Origin: Daphnia carinata
Lineage: Eukaryota
DNA: 64,000 nucleotides
Assembly (NCBI RefSeq): GCF_022539665.2
Contig: NC_081331.1
Location: 496,001 to 560,000, forward strand
Direction of reading: 5' to 3'
Positions 7,901-38,800 of the stretch are shown here, piece by piece; positions within the stretch are counted from its first letter, which is position 1; the number at the start of each line of letters is the position of its first letter. The notes under the pieces are model-generated. The model saw only the letters and a list, made by a program, of their open reading frames with translations. It did no database searches and had not been told where the DNA came from. The translations under genes and the position numbers were made by a program.

Positions 7901-9881
7901 GGAACGATTCCAGCCCTTGGCCGTACAGGGATATGTTCGCTTGCAACAGAGCTGGTTTGTAAAAATTCTATCCAATGGACATCACTTGAGATTTTTTAAG
8001 TATTTACTTGAAATTTCTTTAAGGTGTGAATGGAATACTTGCTCCCGTAAATTCCTCATGGCCGTCGCCCTGATGGCTACTGGTGAAGGAGACAAGGCCA
8101 GTCGATGGATGCTTGAGGCTGCTGAAGGAATAGTCAAGGAACAACTCCTGCGCTCCGTTGTTTTAAAAAGCGTGGATGAAAGTGGCGATTCCATGAGTCG
8201 CTCAGACCCAGTGATTCGCTTTCACCTCGTCTGCGTCCAGTTGCTAGAGCAAGCTGGGCTGAGCAGTGCCGCACTTCGTGTTGCACTGGTTGCGTTAAAC
8301 GGTAGCAAAAAGGAAGACCCGCTGTTAGCTACAATATGGTCTGTTGTCGCCAAACTTCATTTGAACTTGGGTCATTATCAGGTATAAGAGAACATCTTAC
8401 AACCAAATGACATTGTACCTAAACCATATTTCAACAGGAAGCATATGAAGCCATTGTTAATAATCCGGATAGCAGTCAACGGCCCGAAACACTTGGACGT
8501 TTGGTCAATATTTTGTTAGAGCGCAAACAGATGGACACTCTTCTAACCTTTCCTTACGCTGGATTGGAGTCAGAGTTGGAGAAAATAGTAGAAAGGCGGG
8601 CTCGATCATCGGACGTTCTGTCTATGACGCTTTACTATTCGTTCCTCTATGCCTTTCACGTCAGACAGGGTAAAATGCGCAAAGCTGCTGCTGTGATGCA
8701 TGAACAGGTGAAGTGCACTATCGAGAAACAGCTTTTGGTTATGAAAACTAATATCCTCTGATGACAGGCACTTCGATATGGATGTGAAGGTGAATCTGCA
8801 AAAATGGTCAAATGTCTTTTGGCATGCCTCAACGCCCTGCGTTTAGTCTCGAGGCAGGAAGCTTGGCTGGTGAAACCAGTGACAGCTTCGTCTGTTCGGA
8901 AGAATTCATCAGAATCACTCAAGCATACAGTAGACGTCATCGAATATGCTGATATCGAAAAGGAGTATGAACTTAGCTACGCCTGTATTAATCTTGGACA
9001 GCCGATCACATCGCTATCCGCCTCTGATGTAGTAGCTCTTTTGATTTCACGTAACCGCTATGAATCCGCGCTGCGCATTGCCAAGATTTTTGACGTAAAA
9101 GGTATAAAATCTCACTGACTCCTTTCATGAGGCTTGATGTGTTTTTCTCAACAATCTAATCTTAACTAGATACTTCGCCCGTCGTGGAACACCTTGCTGC
9201 CAATTGCATGGCGTTATCGAGAGAACAGGCCAACGAAGATGATGCTTGGGTTTGGTTATCTCTGAATCAGTCCTCTGGAGTTGGTAAGGCTTCGGAACAG
9301 GCCTGGCGATTACTGGAAAAGATTATACCGAAAGCTGAAGGAGGTGATAAAGAAACACGTTGCCATCGAGCGGCTGCCCGAAAAATTCTTGGCTTGGATT
9401 GCACTCTGCCTTATTGGTTGGCCGCCAGCTACAAGTTGAGGAATCCCGGTGAACTTATCAGCCTCTATCATCAGGCAGGACTTCTGGAAGATGCAGCCCA
9501 GGTATTTTAGTTTCTGATTCTGTCAGTTTTAATTAAAAAAAATTACTTGACAAAATCTATCAGGTGGCTCTCGAACTGGTGGATGCTATGCTAGGCAAAG
9601 GTAAGGAATACTTTGGGTTCACCAGCAATCCGCTTCAGATCAACGCTCCTGCTATCTGGCTGCCCTACACCGTTATAGATCGTTTAATCATGGAATTGGA
9701 AGCCAATTCAAACGATTCTACCTACAAGATGGTAAATATTCTCTTTGTAACTTGTTTTTATAACCGCTTCAGTTCTTATTTGTATGTTTAGTTGCTGAAA
9801 GACATGAAGGATAAATTGGAGACTTACTTCCATACCGCTGAACGTGTCAGTCGCTCTATTCTCGAATTATCCGTGTCTTAG
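4974..9881 (+). CDS. NUP160: Nuclear pore complex protein Nup160 (intact copy)
   Basis: Motifs RNRFICWR, LELVEHSLDLNL, SVHRLVLPHP, KLRIWS, CEWNTCSRKFL, ARSSDVL..YYSFLYAFH, LPYWLAASYK and WLPYTVIDRL. GT-AG introns keep frame; ATG 4974, TAG 9879-9881. Confidence 0.92.
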
Positions 9882-10159
9882 CCTGCCTATTTTACGAAAA
9901 TGTGAACTCCGTATTTTCATTTTACTGCATAATGAAATATCGAGAATACCTTTGAATCCAATAAATTCATGTGTATGTGACTGGAATTGTAAACGCAATT
10001 ACACCAGTATATGCAGTTTAAAATCACAGAAAAGCCCTCACTGTGTTCAAGAAATTGACGGAAAAAACAGGTAATTATTAAATTTGCTGATATTAGTGTA
10101 AATTTTTTTTTGTTTAATAGATTTTTGTATGAGGAATCCAATATGAGGAATCCAACTTC

Positions 10160-10380
10160 TTAAATTTGGAACCTAAATCATGGATAGTATCTATATTTAG
10201 TGGTATTATTTTTTTAAAAGGAAAAGTCGGGCTTAAAATTTCCATCAGCCGTATACATTGATGTAGCGCTCCAGTACAACAGTGCTAGTGCAACACATCA
10301 AAGTTCCTCGATTTGTCTTAATTGATCAATAAATAGGGATAACTAGGCATGATTTAGATTCAAAATTTTACGAGAATCAA
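10160..10380. repeat. Fragment of the dispersed AT-rich repeat family also at 23.9-26.0 kb and 35.1-35.8 kb
   Basis: Reverse-complement similarity to ~24620-24840 (AAAAGTCGGGCTTAAAATTTCCATC; ATGATTTAGATTCAAAATT). Confidence 0.8.
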
Positions 10381-10404
10381 GACAATGGTTAAAGAATATG
10401 AAAA

Positions 10405-10495
10405 ATTTCAATAATGACGAGGAGGATTACCTTCTGTAGTCTCCTTGTGACGGCCATAGCTGTTCCGTTTACGTTTTTTGAACTTGCCTAAACGG
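10405..10495 (-). pseudogene. UBE2L3: Inverted orphan copy of UBE2L3 5' leader, exon 1 (MAVTRRLQK, 10457-10431) and start of intron 1
   Basis: Minus strand AAACGGAACAGCTATGGCCGTCACAAGGAGACTACAGAAG|GTAATCCTCCTCGTCATTATT closely matches 28809-28869. Confidence 0.9.
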
Positions 10496-10503
10496 AATTG
10501 CCT

Positions 10504-13374
10504 ACGGAAACCAAGTAGGGTGGGGTTCAATAAAAACAAATGAAACGCGAAACCCGCACAATTTACGGAATTTGACTGAATCAGAGTCATAGAGACCTGG
10601 TTGCTCCACGCTGTGCTATAAATTGCCATAAGAGTCTGCGGTGACTTGTGGTTGAAATTTCACTGATTTTGGGGGAGCAGCTGGCAGCGATAGAGAGCCA
10701 TCTATTGAATGGTCCGTGATCGAAGTTAATAACGGAGCTAGGTGATAAAGCAAGAAATTTTTTTAGTTGTTTACCAAAACATTTGAGTTTCTTTTTCTCG
10801 GCACGGAAAGATACAACTCGCTTCTGTATTCAAAATTTCACTTCACTACACCGACAAATTGAGCTAAAAGCTCGACAACCCATACGTATTTTGCTAACTA
10901 AAGATTCATCTCGAATGAGAAAAAAAAATGTCCATGCAAAATTCTGAATTAGTTGCCAACAAACAACGGGGCCAAAATATACAAAGAGTAATCGCATATG
11001 ACGGCAAACGACTCAAAAAATACATTGAAATTTTTGACAGAAATTACATTAAGGGACAAAAACCGAGAGCCGATAAATTAATTTTTGCTGAATTCATCTT
11101 GTTATTTGTTACAAACCGGAAAAAAGGAACGAGTGCAAGGGGGGGGACGAATAGGAAACGTCTTGGAATTTTTTTTTCTTTTCGTTTAAGAATAAAAGAT
11201 TGGATGAGGAGGGGGTACGAAAGGTGTGTTTATTCTCCTTCCCGACTCGAAAGTTAATATTTTCAGTCAATGTATTGAGCTAGCCAGCGGAAATCTTCGC
11301 CGTAGCCTTGGCCTTCCACAACAGAACACATGAATAATTCAATGGGCCGAGAAGATAAATCTTGGCGAAAGAAGATTGAAGATCTTGGATTTCTGCCCTA
11401 TAAACGGAAATTAAAATTTATCTTACGAGTACTTAAATAAGTTAAATTGAAAGGGATATTTTACTTTTCTGGTAGTGTTGTGCAGCTCAAAATAAGAACG
11501 CAATTGATCTTCCGAATCTGCTCCAAACCTATCGATCTTGTTGCCGAGTATAAGGATAGGACAATGTCTCAATTGTTCATCGGCTAAAAGCGAGCATAAC
11601 TCGTTTTCTTTCCAGCTGTAAAGTTTTTTCGCATAACAGATTCAGAGGAACTAGTGATTGGCAACATAAGGTTCACCACATTTGATTTGGGTGGCCATAT
11701 TCAAGGTGTGTAGCAAAATTTACGATATTCTTTTGAATATCTTAATATTAAATGATTTTTCAAATAGCAATTGCAATTGTGTTTCTAGTCGATGCCTTTG
11801 ACACCCAACGCTTATCGGAAAGTAAAAACGCGTTATGCTCGCTTTTAGCCGATATTAAGATATTCAAAAAAATGCTCGCTAAAAGCGAGCATAACTCGTT
11901 TTTGTCGATGCGGAACTAGTCGGCGGAACAAGTCGATGCCTTTGACACCCAACGCTTATCGGAAAGTAAAAACGAGTTATGCTCGCTTTTAGCGAGCATT
12001 TTTTTGAATATCTTAATATCGGCTAAAAGCGAGCATAACTCGTTTTTACTTTCCGATAAGCGTTGGGTGTCAAAGGCATCGACTAGAAACACAATTGCAA
12101 TTGCTATTTGAAAAATCATTTAATATTAAGATATTCAAAAGAATATCGTAAATTTTGCTACACACCTTGAATATGGCCACCCAAATCAAATGTGGTGAAC
12201 CTTATGTTGCCAATCACTAGTTCCTCTGAATCTGTTATGCGAAAAAACTTTACAGCTGGAAAGTAAAAACGAGTTATGCTCGCTTTTAGCCGATGAACAA
12301 TTGAGACATTGTCCTATCCTTATACTCGACAACAAGATCGATAGGTTTGGAGCAGATTCGGAAGATCAATTGCGTTCTTATTTTGAGCTGCACAACACTA
12401 CCAGAAAAGTAAAATATCCCTTTCAATTTAACTTATTTAAGTACTCGTAAGATAAATTTTAATTTCCGTTTATAGGGCAGAAAGCCAAGATCTTCAATCT
12501 TCTTTCGCCAAGAGTTATCTTCTCGGCCCATTGAATTATTCATGTGTTCTGTTGTGGAAGGCCAAGGCTACGGCGAAGATTTCCGCTGGCTAGCTCAATA
12601 CATTGACTGAAAATATTAACTTTCGAGTCGGGAAGGAGAATAAACACACCTTTCGTACCCCCTCCTCATCCAATCTTTTATTCTTAAACGAAAAGAAAAA
12701 AAAATTCCAAGACGTTTCCTATTCGTCCCCCCCCCCCCCTTGCACTCGTTCCTTTTTTCCGGTTTGTAACAAATAACAAGATGAATTCAGCAAAAATTAA
12801 TTTATCGGCTCTCGGTTTTTGTCCCTTAATGTAATTTCTGTCAAAAATTTCAATGTATTTTTTGAGTCGTTTGCCGTCATATGCGATTACTCTTTGTATA
12901 TTTTGGCCCCGTTGTTTGTTGGCAACTAATTCAGAATTTTGCATGGACATTTTTTTTTCTCATTCGAGATGAATCTTTAGTTAGCAAAATACGTATGGGT
13001 TGTCGAGCTTTTAGCTCAATTTGTCGGTGTAGTGAAGTGAAATTTTGAATACAGAAGCGAGTTGTATCTTTCCGTGCCGAGAAAAAGAAACTCAAATGTT
13101 TTGGTAAACAACTAAAAAAATTTCTTGCTTTATCACCTAGCTCCGTTATTAACTTCGATCACGGACCATTCAATAGATGGCTCTCTATCGCTGCCAGCTG
13201 CTCCCCCAAAATCAGTGAAATTTCAACCACAAGTCACCGCAGACTCTTATGGCAATTTATAGCACAGCGTGGAGCAACCAGGTCTCTATGACTCTGATTC
13301 AGTCAAATTCCGTAAATTGTGCGGGTTTCGCGTTTCATTTGTTTTTATTGAACCCCACCCTACTTGGTTTCCGT
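10504..13374. repeat. Long near-perfect inverted repeat: arms 10504-11903 and 11968-13374, 64 nt spacer
   Basis: The arms are reverse complements with about half a dozen differences. The same spurious ORF appears at 10928(+) and 12950(-). Confidence 0.97.
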
Positions 13375-15085: not shown

Positions 15086-18000
15086 CTTGAATGCTTCAAG
15101 ATATTAAGCTACCTGAAGGATGCATATCAGGAAGATATTGTTTTACCGATTCCCCTTCAGTAGTTACACGAAACCGTTTCACATGCTGGTAAAAACTTAT
15201 TTATTTCTGAATTTGTTTTAGAACTTAAAGCTAGAGAAAAAGTTTAGGGCACAATTTAATATATTTTTTAAATAGGCAAATTAATAATGATGTCCTGGAA
15301 TTAGTTGAGCATAGCTTAGGTTTAAACCTTCATGGAAACTGTCTACTCATTAGATTTCAAGGATTAGCGATCCTGGAGGAAACATCCATACATGAAACTA
15401 GAAACAGTGTTGTCATCTTGGTCTCTACTATATCTTCAGTTCATCTTCTCGTTCTACCACATCCATCAAAACATAATGATCCATCAGCATTCAGTTCAAT
15501 GGGAACCAATATATCTGTCCCCTCTATTTTCACTGAAGCCTCGCTCCCATGGTTGAGTGAATCCTTCAGCCACCAGGTCATCAATAGCACCACTGCAAAT
15601 GTTTCCCTTCCCAGCACAGCAGCATCCTGTTTATCTGCCAATGGAAAAGAAGCTCTGTTTGCTTTGGCAAACACTACGTCAATATCTCTTATTCGCATGG
15701 GTCAGACACCCTCTGCTGTGAGTACGTTTAATTTGCAGCCATCTTCGAATTTTCCTCGTTTGCTCTCCAGTTATCTACCAACTGTATTACGACGCACGTC
15801 AAAGCAAGAAAACGAAGAAACCACGACTACTATTTGCTTGCTGCCAACAAACGATGACATTCTCGTATTGGCCGTAAGCAAAGGCTTGAAGTTGCGTATT
15901 TGATCAGCGACAACACAAGATTGCCGATTGGAATTTGACCTGATTGAGTTTCTTGGTGAGAAATCAGTTAAACAACTTGGCTCTCTTCACTGCATTCGGT
16001 GGTGCACGGAAGGTGAAAATTTCACACTGGGAGTCTTCTCTTCCTTTGGCAAAAAGAGGTCTTTCTACTTATCAATCTGCAAACGGGCCCTACACTCAAA
16101 TTAAATTTCCAGTCCTCCATCGCGGCACAGCACAGTCGTTTGATTGATTTTAGCCAAGGAGCCAAGGAGTCAAGGAGAACATCTATGGGAATTTGCTGAA
16201 ACGACTCGGTTACAGTGGCAACAAATCGCCTTGGAGCCGGGGTTTGAATCAGACATTGAGCACGATGATACCGTTGTTGATCCGAAACAAGCCTACATGC
16301 AGGCACTTTTTAAACCCGGCGCATTCTCTGTTTCTACATTGAGCAAAGCTCTACAAGCTTTTGATCATTCCGGGGCAACCAAAAGAAGGAGAATGGGAGA
16401 CATCAAAGAAGATATCATTATGGCACTCGAGAGGGAGTTATCCGATCAATCAGCAGATGCAGGTGATCTGACGGAAGAAGACTACCTGCTACTCGCAGCC
16501 AAATGTTGGGCTCAGTTCTATGCCTATGTTGTACAATACCATTTGAAGCGACCCGTTCCCATCGGCTTGTTAATTGATGAAAATGCTGGCTTTCATGCTC
16601 TTCTTAAAAAAGGGTTGATTTCCTTTCGGCGTCCCTTAGATCTCGTTGAGAGTTTGGTTTTACAACGAGGAATTCGTTGGAATGAGCACCCACATGTAGA
16701 CGTCATTTCTCCGCTCTTTGGAGGCCAGCAATAAGCTTCCGGCCTTACTGCCCTACTTGAGGTAAAAATCACAACTTTAACTTTCTTCGCGATGGTGTAT
16801 AAACAGTTGCATTATTGCAGGTCCTGCTTCTCGTCAGCGATAATTTGTTGACAGAACAAATAACGTGATTTGACCATTCCATGTTCCAGTTATAAAGCGC
16901 GGATCAAATTGCTCGCGAAATTGCTAATGAACTCCTTGAGAACAAATCGCTCGACTTGCTGAACACCATGCACATCGCATTGCCTTCCGTCAATGTTTAC
17001 ATGGCTTTGTCTAGCCTGCTGCAACAGCTCAGTGTCGGCATGAATGGAGGCAATTCGAAATCAAGTGACATTTTCTTAAGCGGCAAAAATTCTCTGCGGT
17101 TGCTATTCAATGGAGCACTTGGATTAGGCGCACTAGCCGAATCGTCCCGACAGATGGCTGACTTGAGGTGGGCATATGTCATATGGTACACGAGAAATCA
17201 CGTTCTATATTTGATTTGATTTTTGTGGTTTCATGTAAAGATTGGGCTTGTGTCGAGATGGATATTGGATATCACTTGAGATTTGTTTGATATTTATTTA
17301 AAATTTCTTTAAGGTGTGAATGGAATACGTGCTCCCGTAAATTCCTCATGGCCGTCGCCCTGATGGCTCCTGGTGAAGGAGACAAGGCCAGTCGATGGAT
17401 GCTTGAGGCTGCTGAAGGAATAGTCAAGGAACAACTCCTGAGCTCCGTTGTTTTAAAAAGCGTGGATGAAAGTGGCGATTCCATGAGTCGCTCAGACCCA
17501 GTGATTCGCTTTCACCTCGTCTGCGTCCAGTTGCTAGAGCAAGCTGGGCTGAGCAGTGCCGCACTTCGTGTTGCACTGGTTGCGTTAAACGGTAGCAGAA
17601 AGGAAGACCCGCTGTTAGCTACAATATGGTCTGTTGTCGCCAAACTTCATTTGAACTTGGGTCATTATCAGGTATAAGAGAACATCTTACAACCAAATGA
17701 CATTGTACCTAAACCATATTTCAACAGGAAGCATATGAAGCCATTGTTAATAATCCGGATAGCAGTCAACGGCCCGAAACACTGGGACGTTTGGTCAATA
17801 TTTTGTTAGAGCGCAAACAGATGGACACTCTTCTAACCTTTCCTTACGCTGGATTGGAGTCAGAGTTGGAGAAAATAGTAGAAAGGCGGGCTCAATCATC
17901 GGACGTTCTGTCTATGACGCTTTACTATTCGTTCCTCTATGCCTTTAACGTCAGACAGGGTAAAATGCGCAAAGCTGCTGCTGTGATGCATGAACAGGTG

Positions 18001-19171
18001 AAGTGCACTATCGAGAAACAGCTTTTGGTTATGAAAACTAATATCCTCTGATGACAGGCACTTCGATATGGATGTGAAGGTGAATCTGCAAAAATGGTCA
18101 AATGTCTTTTGGCATGCCTCAACGCCCTGCGTTTAGTCTCGAGGCAGGAAGCTTGGCTGGTGAAACCAGTGACAGCTTCGTCTGTTCGGAAGAATTCATC
18201 AGGATCACTCAAGCATACAGTAGACGTCATCGAATATGCTGATATCGAAAAGGAGTATGAACTTAGCTACGCCTGTATTAATCTTGGACAGCCGATCACA
18301 TCGCTATCCGCCTCTGATGTAGTAGCTCTTTTGATTTCACGTAACCGCTATGAATCCGCGCTGCGCATTGCCAAGATTTTTGACGTAAAAGGTATAAAAT
18401 CTCACTGACTCCTTTCATGAGGCTTGATGTGTTTTTCTCAACAATCTAATCTTAACTAGATACTTCGCCCGTCGTGGAACACCTTGCTGCCAATTGCATG
18501 GCGTTATCGAGAGAACAGGCCAACGAAGATGATGCTTGGGTTTGGTTATCTCTGAATCAGTCCTCTGGAGTTGGTAAGGCTTCGGAACAGGCCTGGCGGT
18601 TACTGGAAAAGATTATACCGAAAGCTGAAGGAGGTGATAAAGAAACACGTTGCCATCGAGCGGCTGCCCGAAAAATTCTTGGCTTGGATTGCACTCTGCC
18701 TTATTGGTTGGCCGCCAGCTACAAGTTGAGGAATCCCGGTGAACTTATCAGCCTCTATCATCAGGCAAGACTTCTGGAAGATGCAGCCCAGGTATTTTAG
18801 TTTCTGATTCTGTCAGTTTTAATTTAAAAATATTACTTGACAAAATCTATCAGGTGGCTCTCGAACTGGTGGATGCTATGCTAGGCAAAGGTAAGGAATA
18901 CTTTGGGTTCACCAGCAATCCGCTTCAGATCAACGCTCCTGCTATCTGGCTGCCCTACACCGTTATAGATCGTTTAATCATGGAATTGGAAGCCAATTCA
19001 AACGATTCTACCTACAAGATGGTAAATATTCTCTTTGTAACTTGTTTTTATAACCGCTTCAGTTCTTATTTGTATGTTTAGTTGCTGAAAGACATGAAGG
19101 ATAAATTGGAGACTTACTTCCATACCGCTGAACGTGTCAGTCGCTCTATTCTCGAATTATCCGTGTCTTAG
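15086..19171 (+). pseudogene. NUP160: Partial tandem duplicate of NUP160 (duplicated block 15086-19426 corresponds to 5201-10136)
   Basis: Exon 1 is missing. Stops at 15901, 16732, 16866 and 16893, a frameshift near 16058, and deletions at ~16155 and ~17260 (~570 nt). The 3' part is nearly identical to copy 1. Confidence 0.93.
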
Positions 19172-19711
19172 CCTGCCTATTTTACGAAAATGTGAACTCC
19201 GTATTTTCATTTTACTGTATAATGAAATATCGAGAATACCTTTGAATCCAATAAATTCATGTGTATGTGACTGGAATTGTAAACGCAATTACACCAGTAT
19301 ATGCAGTTTAAAATCACAGAAAAGCGCTCACTGTGTTCAAGAAATTGACGGAAAAAACAGGTAATTATTAAATTTGTTGATATTAGTGTAAATTTTTTTT
19401 TGTTTAATAGATTTTTGTATGAGGAAAACTAACTGTAATCTAACCGTTAGAATTCTAGAGAAAGTTGGAGGTAGGGTATAGTTAATGACCCGGAAGACCT
19501 TGGTTCTTTGTCCTTTTTTTGGAGAGGGGTCAAGCTTAAGGTCGAAATACGATTTGAGAGCAAGGTACCGTTTAAAGGTGTAGAAATCGATGAAACAAAA
19601 TAGGTCAAGAAGCCTCCATTTCTGGTCAAAAGGAGAAACTCTTATGCCTATGAGATTCTACAAATAAAATAGTTCTCAAAGTTTTTATGGTTTCCTGACA
19701 ATCTATCGAGG

Positions 19712-20629: not shown

Positions 20630-23594
<2,965 letters not shown>

Positions 23595-23904
23595 AATATG
23601 AAACCTAGAACGAAACTGAAATACCCATTCTAGAAAAGAAGGAAATGAATAAAACAAAAATGAATAGATTGTATAATGAGAAAAAAATGTATGCGTTATC
23701 GACGAGCAGGTCTGAAGACTTCTCATTGTTTCGGTTAAAAATAATTTTTTTGTCCGTTTAAAATTGCCGCTACTCAGCTTGTATCCGTCCAGATGTTTGG
23801 GGCTTTACCATAAATAAATTTGCTGTTCTTCCGATTTGACAAAGATAATTGAAGTTGTTTTACTCTAATTAAAAAAACTTTATACGTAACGGAAAAACTG
23901 CCCT

Positions 23905-26035
23905 GCCAGCGATCAATTTAGAATCGAAATAATGTATTCTTAACTAAATCTAAAATTCGACGAAAATTGAAAACGTGAGAAGGCTATAGCCTTTTCATTT
24001 TGAAGAAAATCATCAAAAATGGACATCTCTCAGAATTCAATAAAAAAAACATACATTATGCTCAAAATCAAACGCTGATTCTAACTGGCGTATTAGTTTA
24101 GCCGTTCCTATGAAGTTTTTTAATTATGCGCAATCAAAGTAGTTATAGCGCAACTACTTAAATAGTTTAGATAATTCGAAAACTATAAACTCTATGTAAA
24201 AACAAAATTCATTTTCATGATTCTTGTTAAATTTTCGTGATCCTCGTCTATTTTCGTGATCCTCGTTAAATTTTGAATCTAAATCATATTAGTTATCTAT
24301 ATTTATTGATATTATTTTTTAAAGGGAAAAATTTTTAAGCCCGACAAAATAAGCCCTACTTTCCCATATTTTATATTTTAGATTTCTCAAAATCCGTAAA
24401 TGCCATTCCGGAAAAAGTTCATTTTCGTGATTCTGGATAAATTTTGAATCTAAATCATGTATAGTTATCTAGATTTATTGATATTATTTTTTTTTTTTAT
24501 TTGGGCTTATTTTGTCGGGCTTAAAATTTCTTTCGCACCTACTTTTATATTGTAGATAATTTAAAAACCATAAACTCCACGCCAAAACGAAGTTCATTGT
24601 CGTGACTCTGGTTAAGTTTTGAATCTAAATCATGCATACTTTTCTTTATTTATTGATTATTTAAGAAAAATGGATTAACTTCGATGTGTCGCGCTAGCGC
24701 TGTAGCGTACTGGCGCGCCACAACAATATATGTGGCCGATGGAAATTTTAAGCCCGACAAAAAAATAGGCCCGACTTTTCCTTTTAAAAAATAATACCAT
24801 TAAATATAGATTACTATATATGATTTAGATTCTAAATTTAACGAGGATCACGAAAATAACATAGAAATAATATACGTAGACCTTATGGATTTTGAGTAAT
24901 CGATGAACCTTGATGTGTCACGCTAGCGCTGTAGCGTACCGGAGCGCTAGTATGAATAGAAAAAGTCGGGCTTAAAAATTTTTCCTTTAAAAAAATAATA
25001 TCAAGAAATCTAGATAACTATACATGATTTAGATTCCAAATTTAACGAGGATCACGAAAATAGACGTTGTTTTTACGTAGAATTTGTGGATTTTGATTAA
25101 TCAAAGAACTTTGATGTGTCACGCTAGCGCTGTAGCGTACTGGCACGCTAGTACGCTCGACTTAGTCTGGCTTAAATTTACCCCGACTTTCCTTTCCCGA
25201 CCTCATTTTCTTCGTTTTCCTTCATTTTATTAAACCCAATGGCAAAATAAACCCGATTTTTGTGATCAGCGATCAATTTCGCATCGGAATAATGTATTTT
25301 CTTACTAAATTTAGAATTTGACGAAAATCGAAAAAGTGGGAAGGCTATAGCCTTCTCATTTTTACGAAAATCGTCGAAAAGCAACATCTCTTGGAATTGG
25401 GCGAAAATCACAGGTTATAATCAAAATTGAACGCTGATCTCGAATCAGTAATTTATTTTGTCCTTAAACCAGCCGTTTTTTAAATAAAGGAAAAGGTGCT
25501 GCTAGCGCACCACCTTAATTTTTTGTTTTTTACGGTTAATTCAAAACCCGTAAGCCCAACGTCAAAATAAACCCGATTTTCGTGATCAACGATCAATTTC
25601 GAATCGGAATAATGTTTTTAAAACTAAATTTAGAATTTGATGAAAATTGAAAAAGTGGAAAGGCCTTCTCATTTTGACAAAATCATCAAAAATGGACATC
25701 TTTCAGAATTTAATAAAAAAACAGAAATTATGCTCAAAATCAAACGCTGGTTCTAGCTGGTATGGTAGTTTTTCCGTTACATCTGAAGTTTTTAAATTAT
25801 GTGCAATCAAAGTAGGTATAACGCAACTACCTAAATATTTTAGATAATTCGAAAACTATACAAAATTCATTTTCATGATTCTAGTTAAATTTTGAATTTA
25901 AATCATGTATAGCTATCTAGATTTATTGATATTATTTTTTAAAAGGAAACTTTTTTAAGCCCTATTATAAAAGTAGTTGCGCTATTACTACTTTAATTGC
26001 GCTAGCTAGCGCTGTCGCGTATTGGCGTGCTAGTG
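23905..26035. repeat. Complex nested direct/inverted repeat array (non-autonomous DNA transposon or foldback-like)
   Basis: Recurring GCTAGCGCTGTAGCGTAC, AAGCCCGAC/GTCGGGCTT and TTTTGAATCTAAATCAT modules in both orientations. 23909-24200 resembles 25590-25860. No transposase ORF. Confidence 0.8.
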
Positions 26036-26312
26036 TTAAAACTATGATAGGATCTAAATGTGATACCATCTCATTTAGACAGAATTCCTTTTGAAAAATT
26101 CAAAGGCCGCTATAAATTAGTTGTCGTGTTCCTTTTGTTTCGTGACTGCTATCTAACTTTTGCGTAATGCGTAAGAAGGGGCATTAAAAAAATAACAAGA
26201 GGTTCATTTGGCGGAACAGAATCCTTTTATTGACAAGACTGATAAGGAAAACATGTGAAAATGTCATGCTCAGCGCTGTTCCGTTAGCGCACCTCAAGAA
26301 CCGATCAACTCA

Positions 26313-26345
26313 TATATAATCCCCCGAAAAGGTAGCTGAATCAGT
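26313..26345 (+). promoter_or_regulatory. Pol II core promoter: TATATAA at -30 plus TCAGT initiator (A+1 = 26343)
   Basis: TATATAA at 26313-26319 and TCAGT at 26341-26345, canonical arthropod spacing. Confidence 0.55.
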
Positions 26346-26543
26346 GCCGCGAAAGTTGAGACAACCTTTACATTTCCTGCCATCATTTGATGTTCTTCAG
26401 ACTAGCGGATGCAAGCGTCGAGATGTTGGCCAGCACTTTTAACGAATGCAATACCGACATCACAACACATGCATTCAAGCTGCGCCGTGAAGAAGAAGAG
26501 TGAAGCAGGAAATGTAGATGGTGTACTCTATTCGCGGTGCTGA
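26341..26543 (+). ncRNA. Candidate long imperfect hairpin RNA
   Basis: Six nested helices totalling 55 bp with 7 G:U pairs that pair only on the + strand. Confidence 0.55.
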
Positions 26544-26634
26544 ACAACACCATTAACGGGTGAGTCGACCAGTCCCTTTGGATTGCTACACGGAAAGAGC
26601 GTTATTTAAGTTAGAACAAGCATTAGTACAAGTT

Positions 26635-28230
26635 TTAAAAAATCGAGCCATGTTTATGAGCCACGAAATTTTCCGTTTGTTGTCGGGAAGGAGGTAGGTA
26701 TTGGTAATTGACTGATTGACTTTGATAGCGTTGCCCAGATGCAGGTCGCTCTTTTTGAGGAATTTCGATAGGCCGATTCCGTTCCTGGATCGGGTGAGGT
26801 GTTAGTCCCGTTATTGCTGGCTGGACCGACCTAGGAGAGGATCGAATTCCGCTGTCCTTTACCATTAGATAGGGATCAACCTTCTCATTAACTGGTTGAT
26901 ATAGGACCTGAGTTTCAAAAAATGTCTGTTCATTGGTATTAATATCGACGGCCACAGAAGACGAGACGTCATCTACCAGTTGAAAAGTAGGTACAAAAAT
27001 TTTAACGTTTTTAGATGTTTGTAGGAGTGGCCAGTTTCGTTGCGGGTTTTCTCTAGGTGGTGGAAATCCCGTAACTGCAGTGAAGTGTGGCCTAGGCGAG
27101 GGTCGAATACCGTTGCCATTTACCATTCGATATGGGTTAACCTTCTCTTCAACTGGTTGCAGGATCTGAGGTTGCTCAATTGTATTTTCACCGTTTTCAC
27201 CAGTATTACGTTCGACGGCCACAGAGGGCGGAACTTCATCTACCGGTTGAAAAGTTGGAGCAAAGCTCTTAACATTTTCATCTCCTTGGTTGATTGGGCA
27301 GTTTTGTTCCAGGTGAGGTGGTGAAAATGCCGGATTTGCCGGGTGGACTGGCTTAGGGGAGGATCCAATACCGCAGTCTTCTTTCAATCGATGCTCATTT
27401 AGAGTTTGCTTTTCAGCAAAACTAGAGTTAATTTCTAATGTTCTAACATTAACCGTGTTCTCCCGAGTTAACGCGACGTCGTCGAGCATCTCTTCCAGTT
27501 GTTTAATAATTGCGTTCGAAGCCTGTAGAGCCTGGCGGAGCTCCTGCATATCCATCTTCGTTTCATTTAGCTGTTGAAACATACCATTGTTATTCATTTC
27601 TGAATAAGCAAGTCGTTGTTCCAATGCTTGAAGTCGATATGCAAAATCTTGGGATGGAGTTTCTTGTGGCGTAAATGAATTGGGTTTTCCATGTTGAAGA
27701 ACCGTGCCATTATGGCTGTCAGCTCGTGAAAAGGGATTTTGTGGCGTAACGGTTTGACTGGGTTGTATGTTAGCCCCTGGAATTTGCTGGGTGTTAACTG
27801 CACGCAGATTGTCTTCATACGCCTCTGCCTGGGGATGAAGCCGAGAACGGCGTCTGCTGCGAGAAGTTGGCATTACTTCTTTCTCATAGGTTAAAAGATG
27901 TGAATTCCTGCCAATCTCGTTTGCTGGGTTGGGTTGTATGTTAGCCCCTGGAATTTGCTGGATGTTAACTGCATGCAGATTGAGTTCATGCGTCTCTACG
28001 TGGGGATGAAGCCGAGAATGGCGTCTGCTGCGATGTGTTGGCATTACTTCATTCTCATAGGTTAAAACATATGAGTTCATGCCGATCTGGTTTGCTGGGT
28101 TTTCAAGTTTCTCATCAGTCAACTGAGCACGAGCTGAGTCTTCAGGCGGGAAACTTTTTTTGGTCTGGGGTTCTGTACGTGCTTTTGGCCACGAGGGCAA
28201 CAAGGAGAAAATCGATGTTAGAAACAACAT
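26635..28230 (-). CDS. 531-aa intronless orphan protein with internal repeats and a central coiled coil
   Basis: Uninterrupted 1.6 kb ORF from an ATG in AT-rich DNA, with a 57-aa tandem repeat, ~85-aa repeats and a heptad segment (LQALEQRL...IKQLEEML). Confidence 0.7.
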   Translation of the reverse strand: MLFLTSIFSLLPSWPKARTEPQTKKSFPPEDSARAQLTDEKLENPANQIGMNSYVLTYENEVMPTHRSRRHSRLHPHVETHELNLHAVNIQQIPGANIQPNPANEIGRNSHLLTYEKEVMPTSRSRRRSRLHPQAEAYEDNLRAVNTQQIPGANIQPSQTVTPQNPFSRADSHNGTVLQHGKPNSFTPQETPSQDFAYRLQALEQRLAYSEMNNNGMFQQLNETKMDMQELRQALQASNAIIKQLEEMLDDVALTRENTVNVRTLEINSSFAEKQTLNEHRLKEDCGIGSSPKPVHPANPAFSPPHLEQNCPINQGDENVKSFAPTFQPVDEVPPSVAVERNTGENGENTIEQPQILQPVEEKVNPYRMVNGNGIRPSPRPHFTAVTGFPPPRENPQRNWPLLQTSKNVKIFVPTFQLVDDVSSSVAVDINTNEQTFFETQVLYQPVNEKVDPYLMVKDSGIRSSPRSVQPAITGLTPHPIQERNRPIEIPQKERPASGQRYQSQSVNYQYLPPSRQQTENFVAHKHGSIF

Positions 28231-28821
28231 TTTTGAGAGTACTTCTTTTTCTTGTAGAGAACACTAAGAAAATTCAATATTTTCACCGAATATCGCTGAT
28301 GCCCTTTTACCGTTTCTCTGGTGGTGACTGGAGTAGCAGGTTCAAATAAGCAAAGTTGTTTTCATTTTACAAATTTATTTTGAATGCTGCAACGCACACT
28401 TTTGCTGCATTGGAAACTTTAATATTTTTCGCATGGCGTTCAATGGTATCCTTGAAGATAAATTAATTTCAAATTAAGCGAACGTAGATTTTTGTTAGCG
28501 TCGAGAAACAGTTTGTAATGCCAGTCTCTACTGAGTGATGACATTATCGGAATTTCTTTTAGGATTTTACCCATGTTTGATAGCTTCATTTAAGATTACA
28601 AATAATATCCGTTTAGACAATTCAAAATAAAAACTGTGGAATTTAATATTTCAACAAGTTACCTCATAAAGAGGATAACCGAGTGCATAAGTATGAGCAT
28701 AAATTGGACAATGTGGAGGTAACGAGTTGAGGTAAATTTGTAATAAAACGACTTCAGACATTGTGTTACGAGCATTTGGCAACGCTGCTTTTGGATTCTA
28801 AAAAACCTAAACGGAACAGTC

Positions 28822-29539
28822 ATGGCCGCCACAAGGAGACTACATAAGGTAATCCTCCTCGTCATTATTAAAATTTTCCGACTTCTTAAATGTTTTTAAT
28901 TTTTGTTGAAAGGAGTTGGAAGACATTAAGAAGTCTGGTTTGAAATCGTTTCGTGACATTCAAGTTGATGAACAGAACATTCTCACCTGGCATGGACTTA
29001 TCGTTCCTGTGAGTCTGATGGCTGAATATTTGACACAAAAGTATTGATTCATCACCTAGGTTACTAACCATTGACATTTTTCTGTTAGGAAAATGCTCCA
29101 TATAACAAAGGTGCATTTCGGATTGAAATTAATTTTCCTGCTGAATATCCATTCAAACCTCCTAAAATAGCATTTAAAACCAAAATCTACCATCCCAATA
29201 TCGATGAGAAAGGACAGGTAAAACTGAAAGAAATACTTAATATTATAGTCCTTGCTGATTAAGAAAAATGTTCTATTCCATTGTTTTGTTGCTAATCATT
29301 TGACTTTTTTAAATCTTCGCCATTAGGTTTGTTTGCCCATCATTAGTGCTGAAAACTGGAAACCTGCCACTAAAACAGATCAAGTGATACAAGCACTAGT
29401 TGCCTTGGTCAATGATCCAGAGCCTGAACACCCACTCAGGGCTGATCTTGCTGAAGAGTATTCCAAAGACAGAAAAAAATTCATGAAAAATGCTGAAGAG
29501 TTTACTAAAAAGAACAGTGAAAAGAGGCCAAGTGATTAA
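28822..29539 (+). CDS. UBE2L3: Ubiquitin-conjugating enzyme E2 L3 (UbcH7)
   Basis: Four exons: [14 protein letters not shown]..|..[47 protein letters not shown]... Confidence 0.96.
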
Positions 29540-34371: not shown

Positions 34372-35087
34372 AAAGCTCATCTCGTGCTGTTGTGCATGAT
34401 CAAGAAATATCCGTAAGTCTGTTTTAAGTGTATTCTTATTATTATGATTGTCCGCATGTTTCTGCACCGAATTTTAATTCCCTCTTTTTCATCCACCGAT
34501 TAACACATAAAGTTGGTTACGGTCCAGTCATATACAGTAGGCGACATCCTAACCCAGTTGTTTTTATCTGTGTGGAATACTTCTTTGGGCTGTACAACCA
34601 ATTATGAGAACATGCATCCTTTTGGAAATACAGTACTTGTCATATTACACTTTTCTATGTTTATCTATTTTTCAAGATTACACAAAAAATCTGCCTCTTT
34701 TTTGCTTTACTGCTATTGCCATCTACCGGTAAGATTTCCAGTAAATTCTCTGAAGACAACTTTACATATCAAGCTATAGAAAAATAAAATCTTTTAAATT
34801 ATTAACTTTACTTAACTAACATATACTGTAAATAAACCTTATTTTCTTTGTTCTATTCTATTTTTTCTATTCTATTTACCTAACTTAATTATTATTGCTA
34901 TTAACTATTGCATAAGTCCATTTCATACTGCAGCAATGGGAATGAAAATAAAAATTCTTATAATAATAAGAATAATTGCGTGCTTAAGATATAAATAATG
35001 CATTTGAATAAAAACTCGTTACTGGTGGTTGCGTTGTATTATATTATATTATGTTATTCTGATAGGTGTCAGTTTATGCATAAAAAA

Positions 35088-35803
35088 ATTTTAATCCCGA
35101 CTAAATAAGCCCAACTTTTGTTATTTTTTCGTTTTTTGCGTTTAATTAAAAAACGATAAGGCCAATAGAAAAATAAATTTGATTTCCGTGATAAGTATTC
35201 AAATTAACTCAACCATTTTGGAACCATACCGAATATTTCTACAGCATCGCGCTAGCGCTGTAGCGTACTGGCGCGCTAGCAATGCGTTAAATATTCGGTG
35301 TATTTCAAAAACGATTAACTTGATGAAAAAAATAGCAATTTTTTCGGAATTAGCATCCAATTTTGAGTATATCCTGTGATATTCAACCAATTACAATGAG
35401 TTTCAGTTTTTGCAGAGAAAAAATTTAAGCCCGACGAAATAAGCCCGACTTTTCTTATTTTTTCGTTTTTTTACGTTTAATTAAAAAACCATAAGGCCAG
35501 TTGAAAAATAAATTTGATTTTCGTGATAAGCGTTCAATTTTGAATGGAAATCACGTATTTTAAGCGAAATTTAAAATTTAGCCAAAAATGAAAAAGTGCA
35601 AAGGCTATAGCCTTACCACTTTTGTCAAAATCGGCCAAAAATGACATCTCTTGGAATCCGATGAAAATCACACAGTATAATCAAAATTTAACGCTGATTC
35701 AGAAAAAGTCATTCGTTTTCTTGTCAAGTTAGCCGTTTTTGAATTACACCGAATTTTGGTGCAAAAATAAGAAAAGTCGGGCTTATTTAGTCGGGCTTAA
35801 AAA
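35088..35803. mobile_element. MITE-like member of the dispersed repeat family with ~40 nt terminal inverted repeats
   Basis: 35089-35128 matches the reverse complement of 35763-35802 at 37/40 positions. Internal modules are shared with 23.9-26.0 kb. Confidence 0.65.
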
Positions 35804-38800
35804 TTATTATTTAGCGCGATACAGCAGCATAAATATTCGGCTTATGCACCATGAAAATCTCCAATAAAGAAAAAAACATTCCAAAATAGTTCGATTAGCT
35901 ACCGTCGACTGTACGTACGTGACCAAAATTTGTGAAATGATCTTAGTATATATTTAATGTTCTTTCAATAAGCGAAGAAATATCCTTATCGGATGTAGAA
36001 ATATCTTATTGGATGTACGCGAATCAAAGTTCCCTGCTTAATGAACACTAAGAACGGAGTTAGGAATATGCTTAACGGAAGCGCGTAATTGGTCCAGGAG
36101 AAAACCTGCATTCGTGTGCCACTTCTTTTCGATAAGCATCAATGACTCTGTTCTAGAGATCATTTACCTTATGTTAAACATACGATGATGAGCTAAATAG
36201 TATGTTATGATGACCATCACTAGTGGAACTTTTCATACCGTAAAGCCAGAAATCATTCCAACCTGCACGTTTAGAGAGACATGGGACATTATGGCATAGC
36301 TAACGAAGGTATACAACCGTACAACATTCCACAGTAGTTATATTGACAAGGAAATGAACTAAAATCTAATAAAACTTTCTTCGATGTCTATCGCATGGTG
36401 TGACCAAGATGACCCGTTTCGATAGCACAATCCATAAAGACAACGTATTGCTGGCCTTCATTATAAAGATCATTAGGCCCGTGAGGTATAAAAACTATAG
36501 CAGTGCGTACAGGTTTCGGATCGATATCGCTTCCGACAGCCTAAAATAGTGACAATGAGCTTTCGTTGACCTTCTTCCATCCGTTGTCTTTAAGGGGGAC
36601 TATGGGAAAGTGGTACTGGTGCCGTTAAAGGTTATCTCAGTCTGGATCTCTCGGTCAAAATGATGAAGAAACGGCGACATACACGCAGGTCTTCATACTC
36701 GGAAGCCGGACTTGAAGGAGCAAAAGATACAGCCGGAAAACAAAATGAGCGGGCCCGAATGGGGTGAAAGAGACTTATCCGCACGACTTGATTTGTCAAA
36801 CAAAGAAGGGTGTCTCTTCTCTCTCGTTTCTCTTTAACTGCGGGCTGGACACAAGAGAGCGACAAGAGTCTAGTCGGCGCCAAACTCATTAAGCCATTGC
36901 CACCTTATTGGGGGTCTATCAGGGCCTACCCCCCCATTAAGGGGCCCCTCTGCTGGGGTGCCGAGCAAGAGATGAACATGCTGGGCATTCAGCTAGACGG
37001 GGGAGGGGTCGGCGCGGTTGGGGGGCAGGCAGACAAAAGCCCTTCTTCTTCATGCTGGATGGACTGCTGCTTCTTGTGTGTGTGTGTGTGTACAGAGTGC
37101 GAGTCTTGTTTTAAAAGACGAAGGGCCTAACCCTAATATTTGCCTAGTAGACATAGGGATGAGAGGCCATGCACGGGGCACCCGCGGAGTCGCCGGAGCC
37201 AACGCGGGGGAGGGCGGCCGCGACCCTTTATGCGTTTTTTGTGTTTTTCTCGGAGAGATAGATATTTCAGCTTTTTTCTAACCCCTCTTTTTTGGGGGGG
37301 GGGGGGTGTGTTTTTTTCTTTCTTGACTAGGGTTTCTCTTTGTTTCAAGAGAAAACCATCAACTCAAACACACATATAAGACACGTACACTCGAGAGAAA
37401 GGCGAACTGTGAAAATCCACAAAACTCCTAGTCTAATCAGTCAAAGTGCAGAACCGCCCCCTGAAGCTGCCGCCATGGAAACATCATCCGGCGGATGACT
37501 GACGATGCCACCATTGCTTAAAGCGCTCGTAGATTTTTAATACAGTGAACAATAACAAGAATTTTTTTGCCATAGCCCGTCTATAATAACAAGACAACGT
37601 AACATGTTCCACACATAATGCCCATTCTCACTGGATGGCCGTTTCTTTTGCGTTGACAATGGACTGTGTCGCTCTAACGATGATGGATGAGACATCAAAC
37701 AAACGACAGCAGGCGACACATACCGCTGTGAGATTCGAATTTCTGCGGCTGTCCAAGTCTCTCTCATTATTATATCACCGCGTTAGAATGGCTTGTCATT
37801 TTCACGTTACCGTCATTGAATTGCGGTTTTTATTTCAACCCATCAGGTAACTGAGGAAGCGCCCTGCGAACATTATTCCAAGTTGATCATTATTTTTTTT
37901 AAATTCTGTTAGTTCAGCTGTGGATGCTACTGGTGGTTGGACTTTTGTCACCAAAAAAACGGAAAACCGCTGCTGTCCAGCTCGCGGTCGAAATGAAACC
38001 GAGTGCGGAAGAGGCGACACCAAAAAGACCCTTAGAAGAATTCCACCTCGTTGTGCCATTCCGGCGCCGAGATGGCGCCCCCCGCTTTTGCGCGCCGCGC
38101 GCGGGTGCAATTGAGCGCGGACGGGCGCCTATGTCGGCGCGTCTTCCTTTAAAAAAAAAAAAAAATATTTCTGGTTGTGTGTCAACCTTCCCCGTTCTTA
38201 TCGAAATTTGTGCTCACAAGTCCTCCCACAACACAGACCTCTTTAAGTCAATATGATTGGCTCCGCTATGTAAACTGGGGAATCTGACACTTTTTTTTTT
38301 TGACTGTCTGACACACAAAAAAACATGAGAGACGATGAAAATGGATGGTAGAACCTTAACCCTCCAGTTAGACCCTTTTTTTTTTTTGTGTTGTTTTTTT
38401 TTTTTTTTTTTTGCCTTCGTCTACTATGTCTATACAACGACCCCCCGTTGGTTTTTCACTTTAAAACCTATTCCTACTGGGGGCTTTTTCTCTCTGTCTT
38501 TAACTACCTTATATTCTCCATTTCTATGGTGGATATAACACACACACAACTGACAAGTCGCCACTTTTCCTGGCGACAACACGGATTGTTTTCTTGGGGC
38601 CCTTTTTTTTTCAGGCGTGCGTCTGACCCCCCCCCCCCCCTCTTGTATAGTCCGAACCTCTTCTTGTACCTTTAAAAAAGGTGAACATACGTAAGGTACA
38701 AGGCAGTTTTCTCTTTTTATTTAAATGTTTTTCTTCTAGTCAAGGTGCTGTGGCTATACGTTAAGGGGTTAGACTCAATACAGAGACATCTTCATTAGAA

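What the first reader, a model, noticed from the sequence alone, without database searches (positions are those of the whole stretch)
26313..26565. TATA+Inr-driven ~200 nt hairpin with strand-specific G:U pairs, pointing antisense into the orphan gene
Nested helices: 26341-53/26531-43, 26367-80/26505-18, 26383-88/26498-503, 26393-99/26488-94, 26407-13/26470-76 and 26422-29/26454-61. All 7 non-Watson-Crick positions in these helices are G:U on the + strand and would be A-C mismatches on the other. This indicates selection on RNA structure rather than a decayed DNA inverted repeat. The stem begins at a TCAGT initiator 30 nt after TATATAA and is followed by a GTGAGT donor at 26560. It matches no snRNA, SRP or RNase P/MRP motif I recognise. 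Candidate hpRNA, long pri-miRNA or new structured RNA; read-through would be antisense to the 531-aa ORF.
Basis: partly seen in the sequence, partly recalled or inferred. Interest (0 to 1): 0.8.

Follow-up and report, generated by a model that had tools for sequence, protein, structure and literature searches.

The report
Fold-back 3'UTR of Daphnia-specific gene
The hairpin is real but is only the inner half of an old ~390-base fold-back repeat that fills the predicted 3' untranslated tail of a fast-evolving water-flea gene on the opposite strand, where it likely acts as a double-stranded RNA element on that gene's own mRNA rather than as a separate RNA gene.

Summary
The strand argument fails. 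The inverted repeat runs on to about 26248/26636. Over its full length wobbles are 13 on the minus strand versus 11 on the plus (p=0.84). Neutral decay gives 7 or more G:U on the better strand in 80% of simulations. The longer stem folds better on the minus strand (-143 vs -126 kcal/mol), the sense of the 531-aa gene. It spans from that gene's stop codon to 17 nt before its first AATAAA. The gene is no orphan: it has D. magna, D. sinensis and D. carinata relatives. A D. magna gene model runs into a homologue of the stop-proximal arm and shares 16 arm-specific differences, so the repeat likely predates the species split. Conservation is no better than the 5' flank's. Best reading: a long 3'UTR double-stranded element acting in cis (0.45). 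Rivals: neutral relic (0.28), plus-strand hpRNA (0.2), giant pri-miRNA (0.07). No genome or RNA data were available.

The parts
26248..26437 (.). Left arm of the fold-back repeat (3' arm of the stem in a minus-strand mRNA). Firm from about 26274 inward; 26248-26273 is weaker.
26446..26636 (.). Right (stop-proximal) arm, 5' arm of the stem in a minus-strand mRNA; a homologue lies behind a D. magna paralogue
26438..26445 (.). Apical loop/spacer of about 7-8 nt
26341..26543 (.).
26296..26577 (-). 17-bp contiguous outer helix, 26577-26561 with 26312-26296: five G:U on minus, broken by A.C on plus. Its right strand is the best-conserved piece in D. magna (1 obligatory change in 27 nt over 26559-26585, at an unpaired base).
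26313..26322 (+). TATATAA-containing 10-nt segment present in the left arm only (indel between arms; a 10-nt bulge in the minus-strand fold); candidate TATA box 30 nt before TCAGT
26341..26345 (+). TCAGT, Inr-like (consensus recalled); candidate plus-strand start at 26343, untested
26560..26565 (+). GTGAGT donor-like hexamer, part of the 17-bp minus-strand helix; no strong acceptor within about 250 nt
26226..26231 (-). First AATAAA downstream of the ORF, followed by CA and a U/GU-rich tract: predicted poly(A) signal (consensus recalled)
26635..28230 (-). Intronless 531-aa ORF: Daphnia-restricted family among the hits, weak coiled-coil signal plus ~50-90-aa SPRP/GFPP repeats; no Pfam family at cut-off; at least 6 gene models in one D. 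magna annotation
28275..28353 (-). 5' flank of the ORF, also alignable to a D. magna-cluster model (P0010); used as non-coding divergence control

Best explanation
An old fold-back duplication of about 190 bases fills the predicted 3'UTR of the minus-strand 531-aa gene, and in that mRNA it would form a ~390-nt irregular stem that likely acts in cis as a double-stranded RNA element limiting the gene's own expression. Shown: the repeat, its limits (stop codon to 17 nt before AATAAA), its stronger fold on the minus strand, and a homologous right arm behind a D. magna paralogue. Inferred: that the mRNA ends at the 26231 signal and so carries the stem, and that the duplication predates the split from D. 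magna. Also inferred: dsRNA-binding factors (Dicer-2/Loquacious or Drosha/Pasha cutting the stem off the poly(A) tail, opposed by ADAR editing) set the level or timing of this fast-evolving, multi-copy protein. Self-slicing by siRNAs from this strand is unlikely, since the arms share at most 12 contiguous Watson-Crick pairs.
For: Repeat limits match the predicted UTR: outermost pairs 26636:26248, stop at 26635, first AATAAA at 26231 with a downstream U/GU tract, and no AATAAA or ATTAAA between. 26272-26606 folds at -143.4, z -10.7 on minus vs -125.5, z -7.3 on plus, 0 of 100 shuffles each. The 17-bp helix with 5 G:U forms only on minus. The gene is a real family (7 clusters; D. carinata match runs to 26668). 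The 36-residue tail of D. magna model P0001 (KAK4015439.1) maps in three collinear pieces to the minus strand of the right arm. Best minimal mismatches over both strands of the window: 1/27 nt (next best 5), 10/51 (next 15), 7/33 (next 8). Of 56 positions fixed by the amino acid, 16 are arm differences shared with D. magna. Changes between species fall where the window's arms still match (8) rather than where D. magna matches the left arm (1), p=0.039, as compensated or concerted evolution predicts. Analogy: Drosha cleaves stem-loops in the Ngn2 3'UTR (PMC3814725, passages); dsRNA structures typically lie in introns and UTRs (PMC6239182, abstract).
Against: No RNA data. Whole-repeat wobble polarity is null (13 vs 11, p=0.84) and transversions (20) are nearly as many as transitions (24). 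The 18 kcal/mol strand gap is reached in 13 of 150 neutral simulations one-sided and 31 of 150 two-sided. Arm divergence from D. magna (14/79 informative positions, 18%; two residues needing an indel left out) is not lower than the 5' flank (12/65, 18%; best cores 5/51). It is not significantly lower than the ORF (21-27%; Fisher p 0.61 and 0.11). The 8:1 signal becomes 7:2 (p=0.18) under the fold-based register, and 3 of the 8 lie in the least certain 5-residue piece. D. magna changes tolerated as G:U on one strand only split 4 minus to 2 plus, with 2 breaking both. The D. magna left arm was never seen. The outermost 25 nt of the repeat is not significant alone (160/2000).
Confidence: 0.45

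Rival explanations
1. The repeat is a neutral relic: a fold-back duplication or decayed hairpin-type (MITE/foldback) insertion that sits in the 3'UTR, still folds because its arms are about 74% alike, and has no selected role.
For: Null wobble polarity, transitions about equal to transversions, and 37 gap columns. Divergence from D. magna equals that of the 5' flank. The region makes fold-backs and holds MITE-like repeats (palindrome 10504-13374; repeat cluster 23900-26035). Neutral simulations reproduce the G:U count and the strand gap.
Against: The repeat's ends coincide with the stop codon and the poly(A) signal. Both arms and a ~7-nt loop have survived since before the split from D. magna (inferred). 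8:1 (or 7:2) asymmetry of interspecies changes. No second copy in the window.
Confidence: 0.28
2. One reading: a TATA-Inr promoter in the left arm drives a plus-strand Pol II hpRNA starting at 26343. Its inner stem would be diced into siRNAs perfectly antisense to the 3'UTR of the 531-aa gene and its paralogues, and read-through would be antisense to the ORF.
For: Only TATA-N(19-23)-TCAKT pair in the window, at canonical spacing, with TCAGT at the base of the best plus-strand helix. About 1% chance of falling in the repeat (post hoc, from 1.7 per 128 kb). The TATA segment is present in one arm only. Wobbles are 8+:6- where both strands could pair and 2+:6- in the next outer segment, where only a minus transcript could (not significant). 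Only this model gives siRNAs with the 16 or more contiguous pairs needed for slicing (PMC13228617 section 9; longest arm-to-arm run is 12). A spliced Drosophila hpRNA with the duplex near its 5' end is described (PMC10317233 passages).
Against: The G:U argument is circular. A TATA+Inr pair is expected by chance in 79% of shuffled windows. Canonical Inr is found in about 2% of Daphnia genes (10.64898/2026.08.31.748272, passages). Conservation around GTGAGT runs 20 nt into the would-be intron and coincides with the minus-strand helix. No acceptor with more than 8/14 pyrimidines before 26868; first plus AATAAA is at 28626.
Confidence: 0.2
3. [quoted passage not shown]
For: Daphniidae have the longest crustacean miRNA hairpins (PMC12553114 passages; PMC6828783 passages). 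26559-26585 has 1 obligatory change in 27 nt.
Against: Arm motifs were not found in any Daphnia entry of the MirGeneDB table text held (table cut at 14,689 rows of 19,725 genes, two supplements unreadable) or in the D. magna miRNA supplements. No Rfam hit.
Confidence: 0.07

Closest known systems
Long inverted-repeat dsRNA in 3'UTRs (C. elegans editing-enriched regions / IR structures; PMC6239182 abstract, PMC5859968 abstract and section titles)
   Same: Long irregular intramolecular duplex in an untranslated region of a protein-coding gene; potential ADAR and Dicer substrate.
   Different: Here it fills essentially the whole predicted UTR from stop codon to poly(A) signal. No repeat-family origin shown, and editing is untested.
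Drosophila hairpin RNAs (hpRNA1, hp-CG4068, hp-pncr009, hp-tHMG, Nmy/Tmy; PMC10317233 and PMC12697358 passages)
   Same: Long imperfect fold-back beside a fast-evolving, amplified, lineage-restricted gene family; possible Pol II transcript with the stem at its 5' end.
   Different: hpRNAs are defined by Dcr-2-dependent 21-22-nt reads, not testable here. Their arms usually derive from a separate target gene, whereas here the only complementary sequence seen is the host gene's own UTR. Described hpRNAs are recent; this repeat appears older than a species split.
Microprocessor-cleaved mRNA stem-loops (Dgcr8, Ngn2 3'UTR; PMC3814725 passages)
   Same: Stem-loop inside an mRNA whose cleavage would destabilise it in cis.
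   Different: Those are treated as pri-miRNA-like stems (recalled); this is about 137 predicted pairs over 390 nt with many internal loops.
Giant Daphniidae miRNA hairpins (mir-375, let-7, mir-278, mir-750; PMC12553114)
   Same: Same lineage, similar hairpin length, highly paired extension.
   Different: No match to a catalogued mature miRNA in the tables searched; no invariant 22-mer at the canonical register.

Membership tests
3'UTR long dsRNA element | Long intramolecular duplex beyond chance | tested here: met
   z -10.7 on minus, 0/100 shuffles
3'UTR long dsRNA element | Lies within the mRNA 3'UTR | tested here: inconclusive
   Between stop codon and first AATAAA; no transcript data
3'UTR long dsRNA element | A-to-I editing, dsRBP binding or effect on mRNA level | not testable with these tools
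   No RNA run listed
3'UTR long dsRNA element | Compensatory base-pair changes in homologues | tested here: inconclusive
   Only one D. magna arm, read through a peptide; 8:1 or 7:2 asymmetry
Drosophila-type hpRNA | Long inverted repeat able to fold on one strand | tested here: met
Drosophila-type hpRNA | Own capped, polyadenylated, often spliced Pol II transcript | not testable with these tools
   TATA/Inr/donor motifs only
Drosophila-type hpRNA | Dcr-2-dependent 21-22-nt siRNAs from the arms, testis-biased | not testable with these tools
   No small-RNA data
Drosophila-type hpRNA | Extended antisense match to a target gene | tested here: inconclusive
   No match elsewhere in the 64-kb window; genome not held; a plus transcript would match the host UTR by overlap
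   13 minus vs 11 plus, p=0.84
Giant pri-miRNA | Mature sequence of a catalogued family | tested here: not met
   Motif searches in MirGeneDB table text held (cut) and D. magna miRNA supplements, and Rfam: no Daphnia hit
Giant pri-miRNA | Invariant ~22-nt arm in orthologue | tested here: inconclusive
   At least 6 changes in 26511-26532 but 1 in 26559-26585
Giant pri-miRNA | Precise duplex reads with 2-nt 3' overhangs | not testable with these tools
   No small-RNA data
MITE / foldback transposon | Many dispersed copies | tested here: inconclusive
   No second copy in the window; no extended match among 63 metagenome loci; genome not held
MITE / foldback transposon | Target-site duplication at the repeat ends | not tested
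   None evident by eye; ends are eroded

The most novel reading that the evidence does not exclude
A self-contained silencing cassette travels with an amplified, rapidly evolving Daphnia gene family. The mRNA carries a whole-UTR stem, and a TATA box present in one arm only drives a convergent plus-strand hpRNA whose siRNAs silence every family member through the shared 3'UTR. That would be a crustacean counterpart of the Drosophila Dox/Nmy-Tmy driver-suppressor logic, with gene and suppressor built from one fold-back.
Probability: 0.12. Interest if true: 0.75.

Novelty: new member of a known kind. Interest (0 to 1): 0.36.

Why it matters
If functional, it gives a concrete Daphnia locus for testing whether long UTR fold-backs or hpRNA-type siRNAs restrain a fast-evolving multi-copy gene outside Drosophila. 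Two full-text searches for Daphnia with hairpin RNA/endo-siRNA or siRNA/Dicer-2 terms listed no paper on a Daphnia hpRNA by title and abstract start (3 of 3 and 6 of 7 listed). It also shows that counting G:U pairs inside hand-picked helices cannot assign a strand. If neutral, it is an ordinary old inverted duplication.

Tried and rejected
No genome is held for the window. No RNA holder was listed for 26000-28400 (not evidence either way). Rfam: nothing over the hairpin. Metagenome scans: 0 matches for a donor-region 20-mer; 63 loci for an 18-mer of the right arm, none extending beyond 23 nt, so chance. Hairpin reading frames used as protein queries to find more Daphnia gene models: 1 candidate and no hit among longer proteins. 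phmmer over the representative library gave 2 hits, both repeat proteins whose score is summed over repeats; the one checked pairwise (P0011) gave 22-25 bits per repeat; rejected. Family alignment against shorter proteins: 405 candidates, none at E<=0.01. Pfam: no family at cut-off for the window protein; one repeat-summed score above cut-off (BHD_3) for P0001, with no single stretch passing. ESM Atlas: nothing above 0.76. Earlier findings: five answered look-ups, nothing shown. A recalled resemblance of 26478-26499 to the miR-22/745 family was checked only by an 11-nt motif search (0 hits) and dropped. That hp-CG4068 lies in a 3'UTR is recalled; passages read did not confirm it, so it is not used. 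Pol III transcription from the TATA was set aside because a T4 run sits at the apex (inference). Supplements 4 and 6 of PMC12553114 were too large to read and its Table S1 is cut; they could hold a Daphnia locus I did not see.

Full report
Setting. No genome is held for the window and no RNA run was listed, so all work rests on the window, protein databases and papers. The 531-aa ORF at 26635-28230 (minus strand) has 7 homologous clusters among 5668 candidates, all from Daphnia magna, D. sinensis or D. carinata, at 34-39% BLAST identity. Cluster members add two more D. magna models and one unnamed record. The window is therefore likely a Daphnia species and the gene is lineage-restricted, not an orphan. 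It has a weak coiled-coil signal and SPRP/GFPP repeats, no Pfam family at cut-off and no Atlas look-alike above 0.76.

The observation. The six helices are exact: 48 Watson-Crick and 7 G:U pairs. The 216-nt stretch folds at -89.1 kcal/mol (z -8.28) on plus and -87.7 (z -6.86) on minus, 0 of 200 shuffles each. TATATAA, TCAGT and GTGAGT are present. Rfam gives nothing over the stem.

The strand argument fails. Aligning the arms end to end gives 8 wobbles that are G:U on plus and 6 on minus. In 200 simulated neutral decays of a perfect repeat with similar divergence, 80% had 7 or more G:U on their better strand and 93.5% had a strand gap of 1.4 kcal/mol or more.

The repeat is about twice as long. 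The arms align as 26248-26437 and 26446-26636 with 128 Watson-Crick, 13 G:U(minus), 11 G:U(plus), 20 transversion and 37 gap columns; polarity p=0.84. The extension 26274-26340/26544-26603 is matched by 6 of 2000 random pairs, the outermost piece by 160 of 2000. 26272-26606 folds at -143.4 (z -10.7) on minus and -125.5 (z -7.3) on plus; this gap is reached in 13 of 150 neutral simulations. A 17-bp contiguous helix (26577-26561 with 26312-26296) with five G:U forms only on minus. The donor-like GTGAGT is part of that helix, and the TATA segment is a 10-nt indel present in the left arm only. The repeat begins at the stop codon and ends 17 nt before AATAAA 26231, which is followed by CA and a U/GU-rich tract; no AATAAA or ATTAAA lies between (consensus motifs recalled). 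The simplest reading is that the stem fills the 3'UTR of the minus-strand gene. This is inferred, not shown.

A D. magna homologue, seen through a gene model. The last 36 residues of P0001 (KAK4015439.1) do not resemble the paralogues' ends but match translations of the window's right arm. Three pieces map collinearly on the minus strand as the best hits in the window: 1 obligatory mismatch in 27 nt at 26585 (next best 5), 10 in 51 at 26527 (next 15), 7 in 33 at 26474 (next 8). Of 56 positions whose D. magna base is fixed by the amino acid, 28 agree in all three sequences, 16 are arm differences shared with D. magna, 8 differ in D. magna where the window's arms match, 1 matches the left arm, and 3 are three-state. 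The 16 shared differences imply the duplication predates the split. The 8:1 imbalance (p=0.039) hints at compensated or concerted evolution, but it falls to 7:2 (p=0.18) under the fold-based register, and 3 of the 8 lie in the least certain five-residue piece. D. magna changes tolerated as G:U on one strand only split 4 minus to 2 plus, and 2 break both.

Control for conservation. The arm differs at 14 of 79 informative positions (18%; two residues needing an indel left out). The ORF differs from P0001 at 21-27% (Fisher p 0.61 and 0.11). A second model, P0010, runs into the 5' flank, which differs at 12 of 65 (18%; best cores 5 of 51). So the arm is not specially conserved. The side result is that amino-acid-changing sites of the protein diverge at least as fast as its non-coding flanks, as expected under positive selection or full relaxation (inference; no DNA-level dN/dS possible).

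The plus-strand promoter. The TATA-Inr pair is unique in the window, but 1.7 are expected by chance and 79% of 200 shuffled windows have one; landing in the repeat is about 1%, post hoc. Canonical Inr is rare in Daphnia (10.64898/2026.08.31.748272, four passages). No acceptor with more than 8 of 14 pyrimidines occurs before 26868, and the first plus AATAAA is at 28626. In its favour, only a plus transcript would give siRNAs able to slice the mRNA: the arms share at most 12 contiguous Watson-Crick pairs, below the 16 found necessary in flies (PMC13228617, abstract and section 9).

Mechanism. I commit to a cis-acting dsRNA element in the 3'UTR (0.45): the stem would be bound, cut or edited by Dicer-2, Drosha or ADAR-type factors and so limit a fast-evolving multi-copy gene. 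Precedents are Drosha cleavage of 3'UTR stems (PMC3814725, passages) and UTR inverted-repeat dsRNAs (PMC6239182 abstract; PMC5859968 abstract and section titles). Rivals: neutral relic (0.28), plus-strand hpRNA as in Drosophila (0.2; PMC10317233 passages; PMC12697358 passages), and giant pri-miRNA (0.07). For the last, Daphniidae do have such hairpins (PMC12553114: abstract, passages, part 1 of 400 of Table S1; PMC6828783: passages). Arm motifs had no Daphnia hit in the supplements held; Table S1 is cut and two supplements were unreadable.

What led nowhere: metagenome scans, frame-based protein searches and earlier findings.

Verdict. A real, old, longer-than-reported fold-back, most likely in the 3'UTR of the opposite-strand gene. 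New member of a known kind; interest 0.36.

Noticed in passing
window 26635-28230 (-) with flanks 26445-26585 and 28275-28353: Amino-acid-changing sites of the 531-aa protein differ from D. magna (21-27%) at least as much as both non-coding flanks (about 18%), and one D. magna annotation has at least 6 gene models of the family, five listed with the same 8.83-Mb longest contig: candidate positive selection and amplification.
   Followed up: partly
window 10504-13374: Near-perfect 2.9-kb palindrome (1.4-kb arms, 99-100% complementary in blocks) with nested inverted repeats at its centre: a very recent fold-back duplication or an assembly artefact.
   Followed up: partly
window 15093-19426 vs 5207-7406 and 7976-10136: Partial duplicate of the Nup160-like gene (name recalled from the translation), in two blocks at 91% and 99% identity.
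   Followed up: no
window about 20690-23594 (+): Diverged Sec23-like gene (name recalled) with what looks like a frameshift near 21750; paralogue or pseudogene.
   Followed up: no
window 10389-10479 vs 28800-28890: Inverted 91-nt copy (88%) of the first exon region of the UBE2L3-like gene (name recalled), abutting a repeat fragment and the large palindrome: suggests a complex rearrangement between about 10.1 and 28.9 kb.
   Followed up: no
window 23900-26035, 10160-10387, 35083-35808: AT-rich MITE-like repeat family in direct and inverted fragments, directly upstream of the fold-back.
   Followed up: no
window 28230-28830: The 531-aa gene and the UBE2L3-like gene lie head to head about 590 nt apart; one TCAGT on the minus strand at 28534, no TATA match.
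   Followed up: no
window 26053-26079: Small inverted repeat (27 nt) between the repeat cluster and the predicted poly(A) site.
   Followed up: no
window 56750-57150 and 36800-37200: GC-rich stretches that fold strongly; z -3.66 and -0.43 against shuffles; both contain a CCTAACCCTAA motif.
   Followed up: partly
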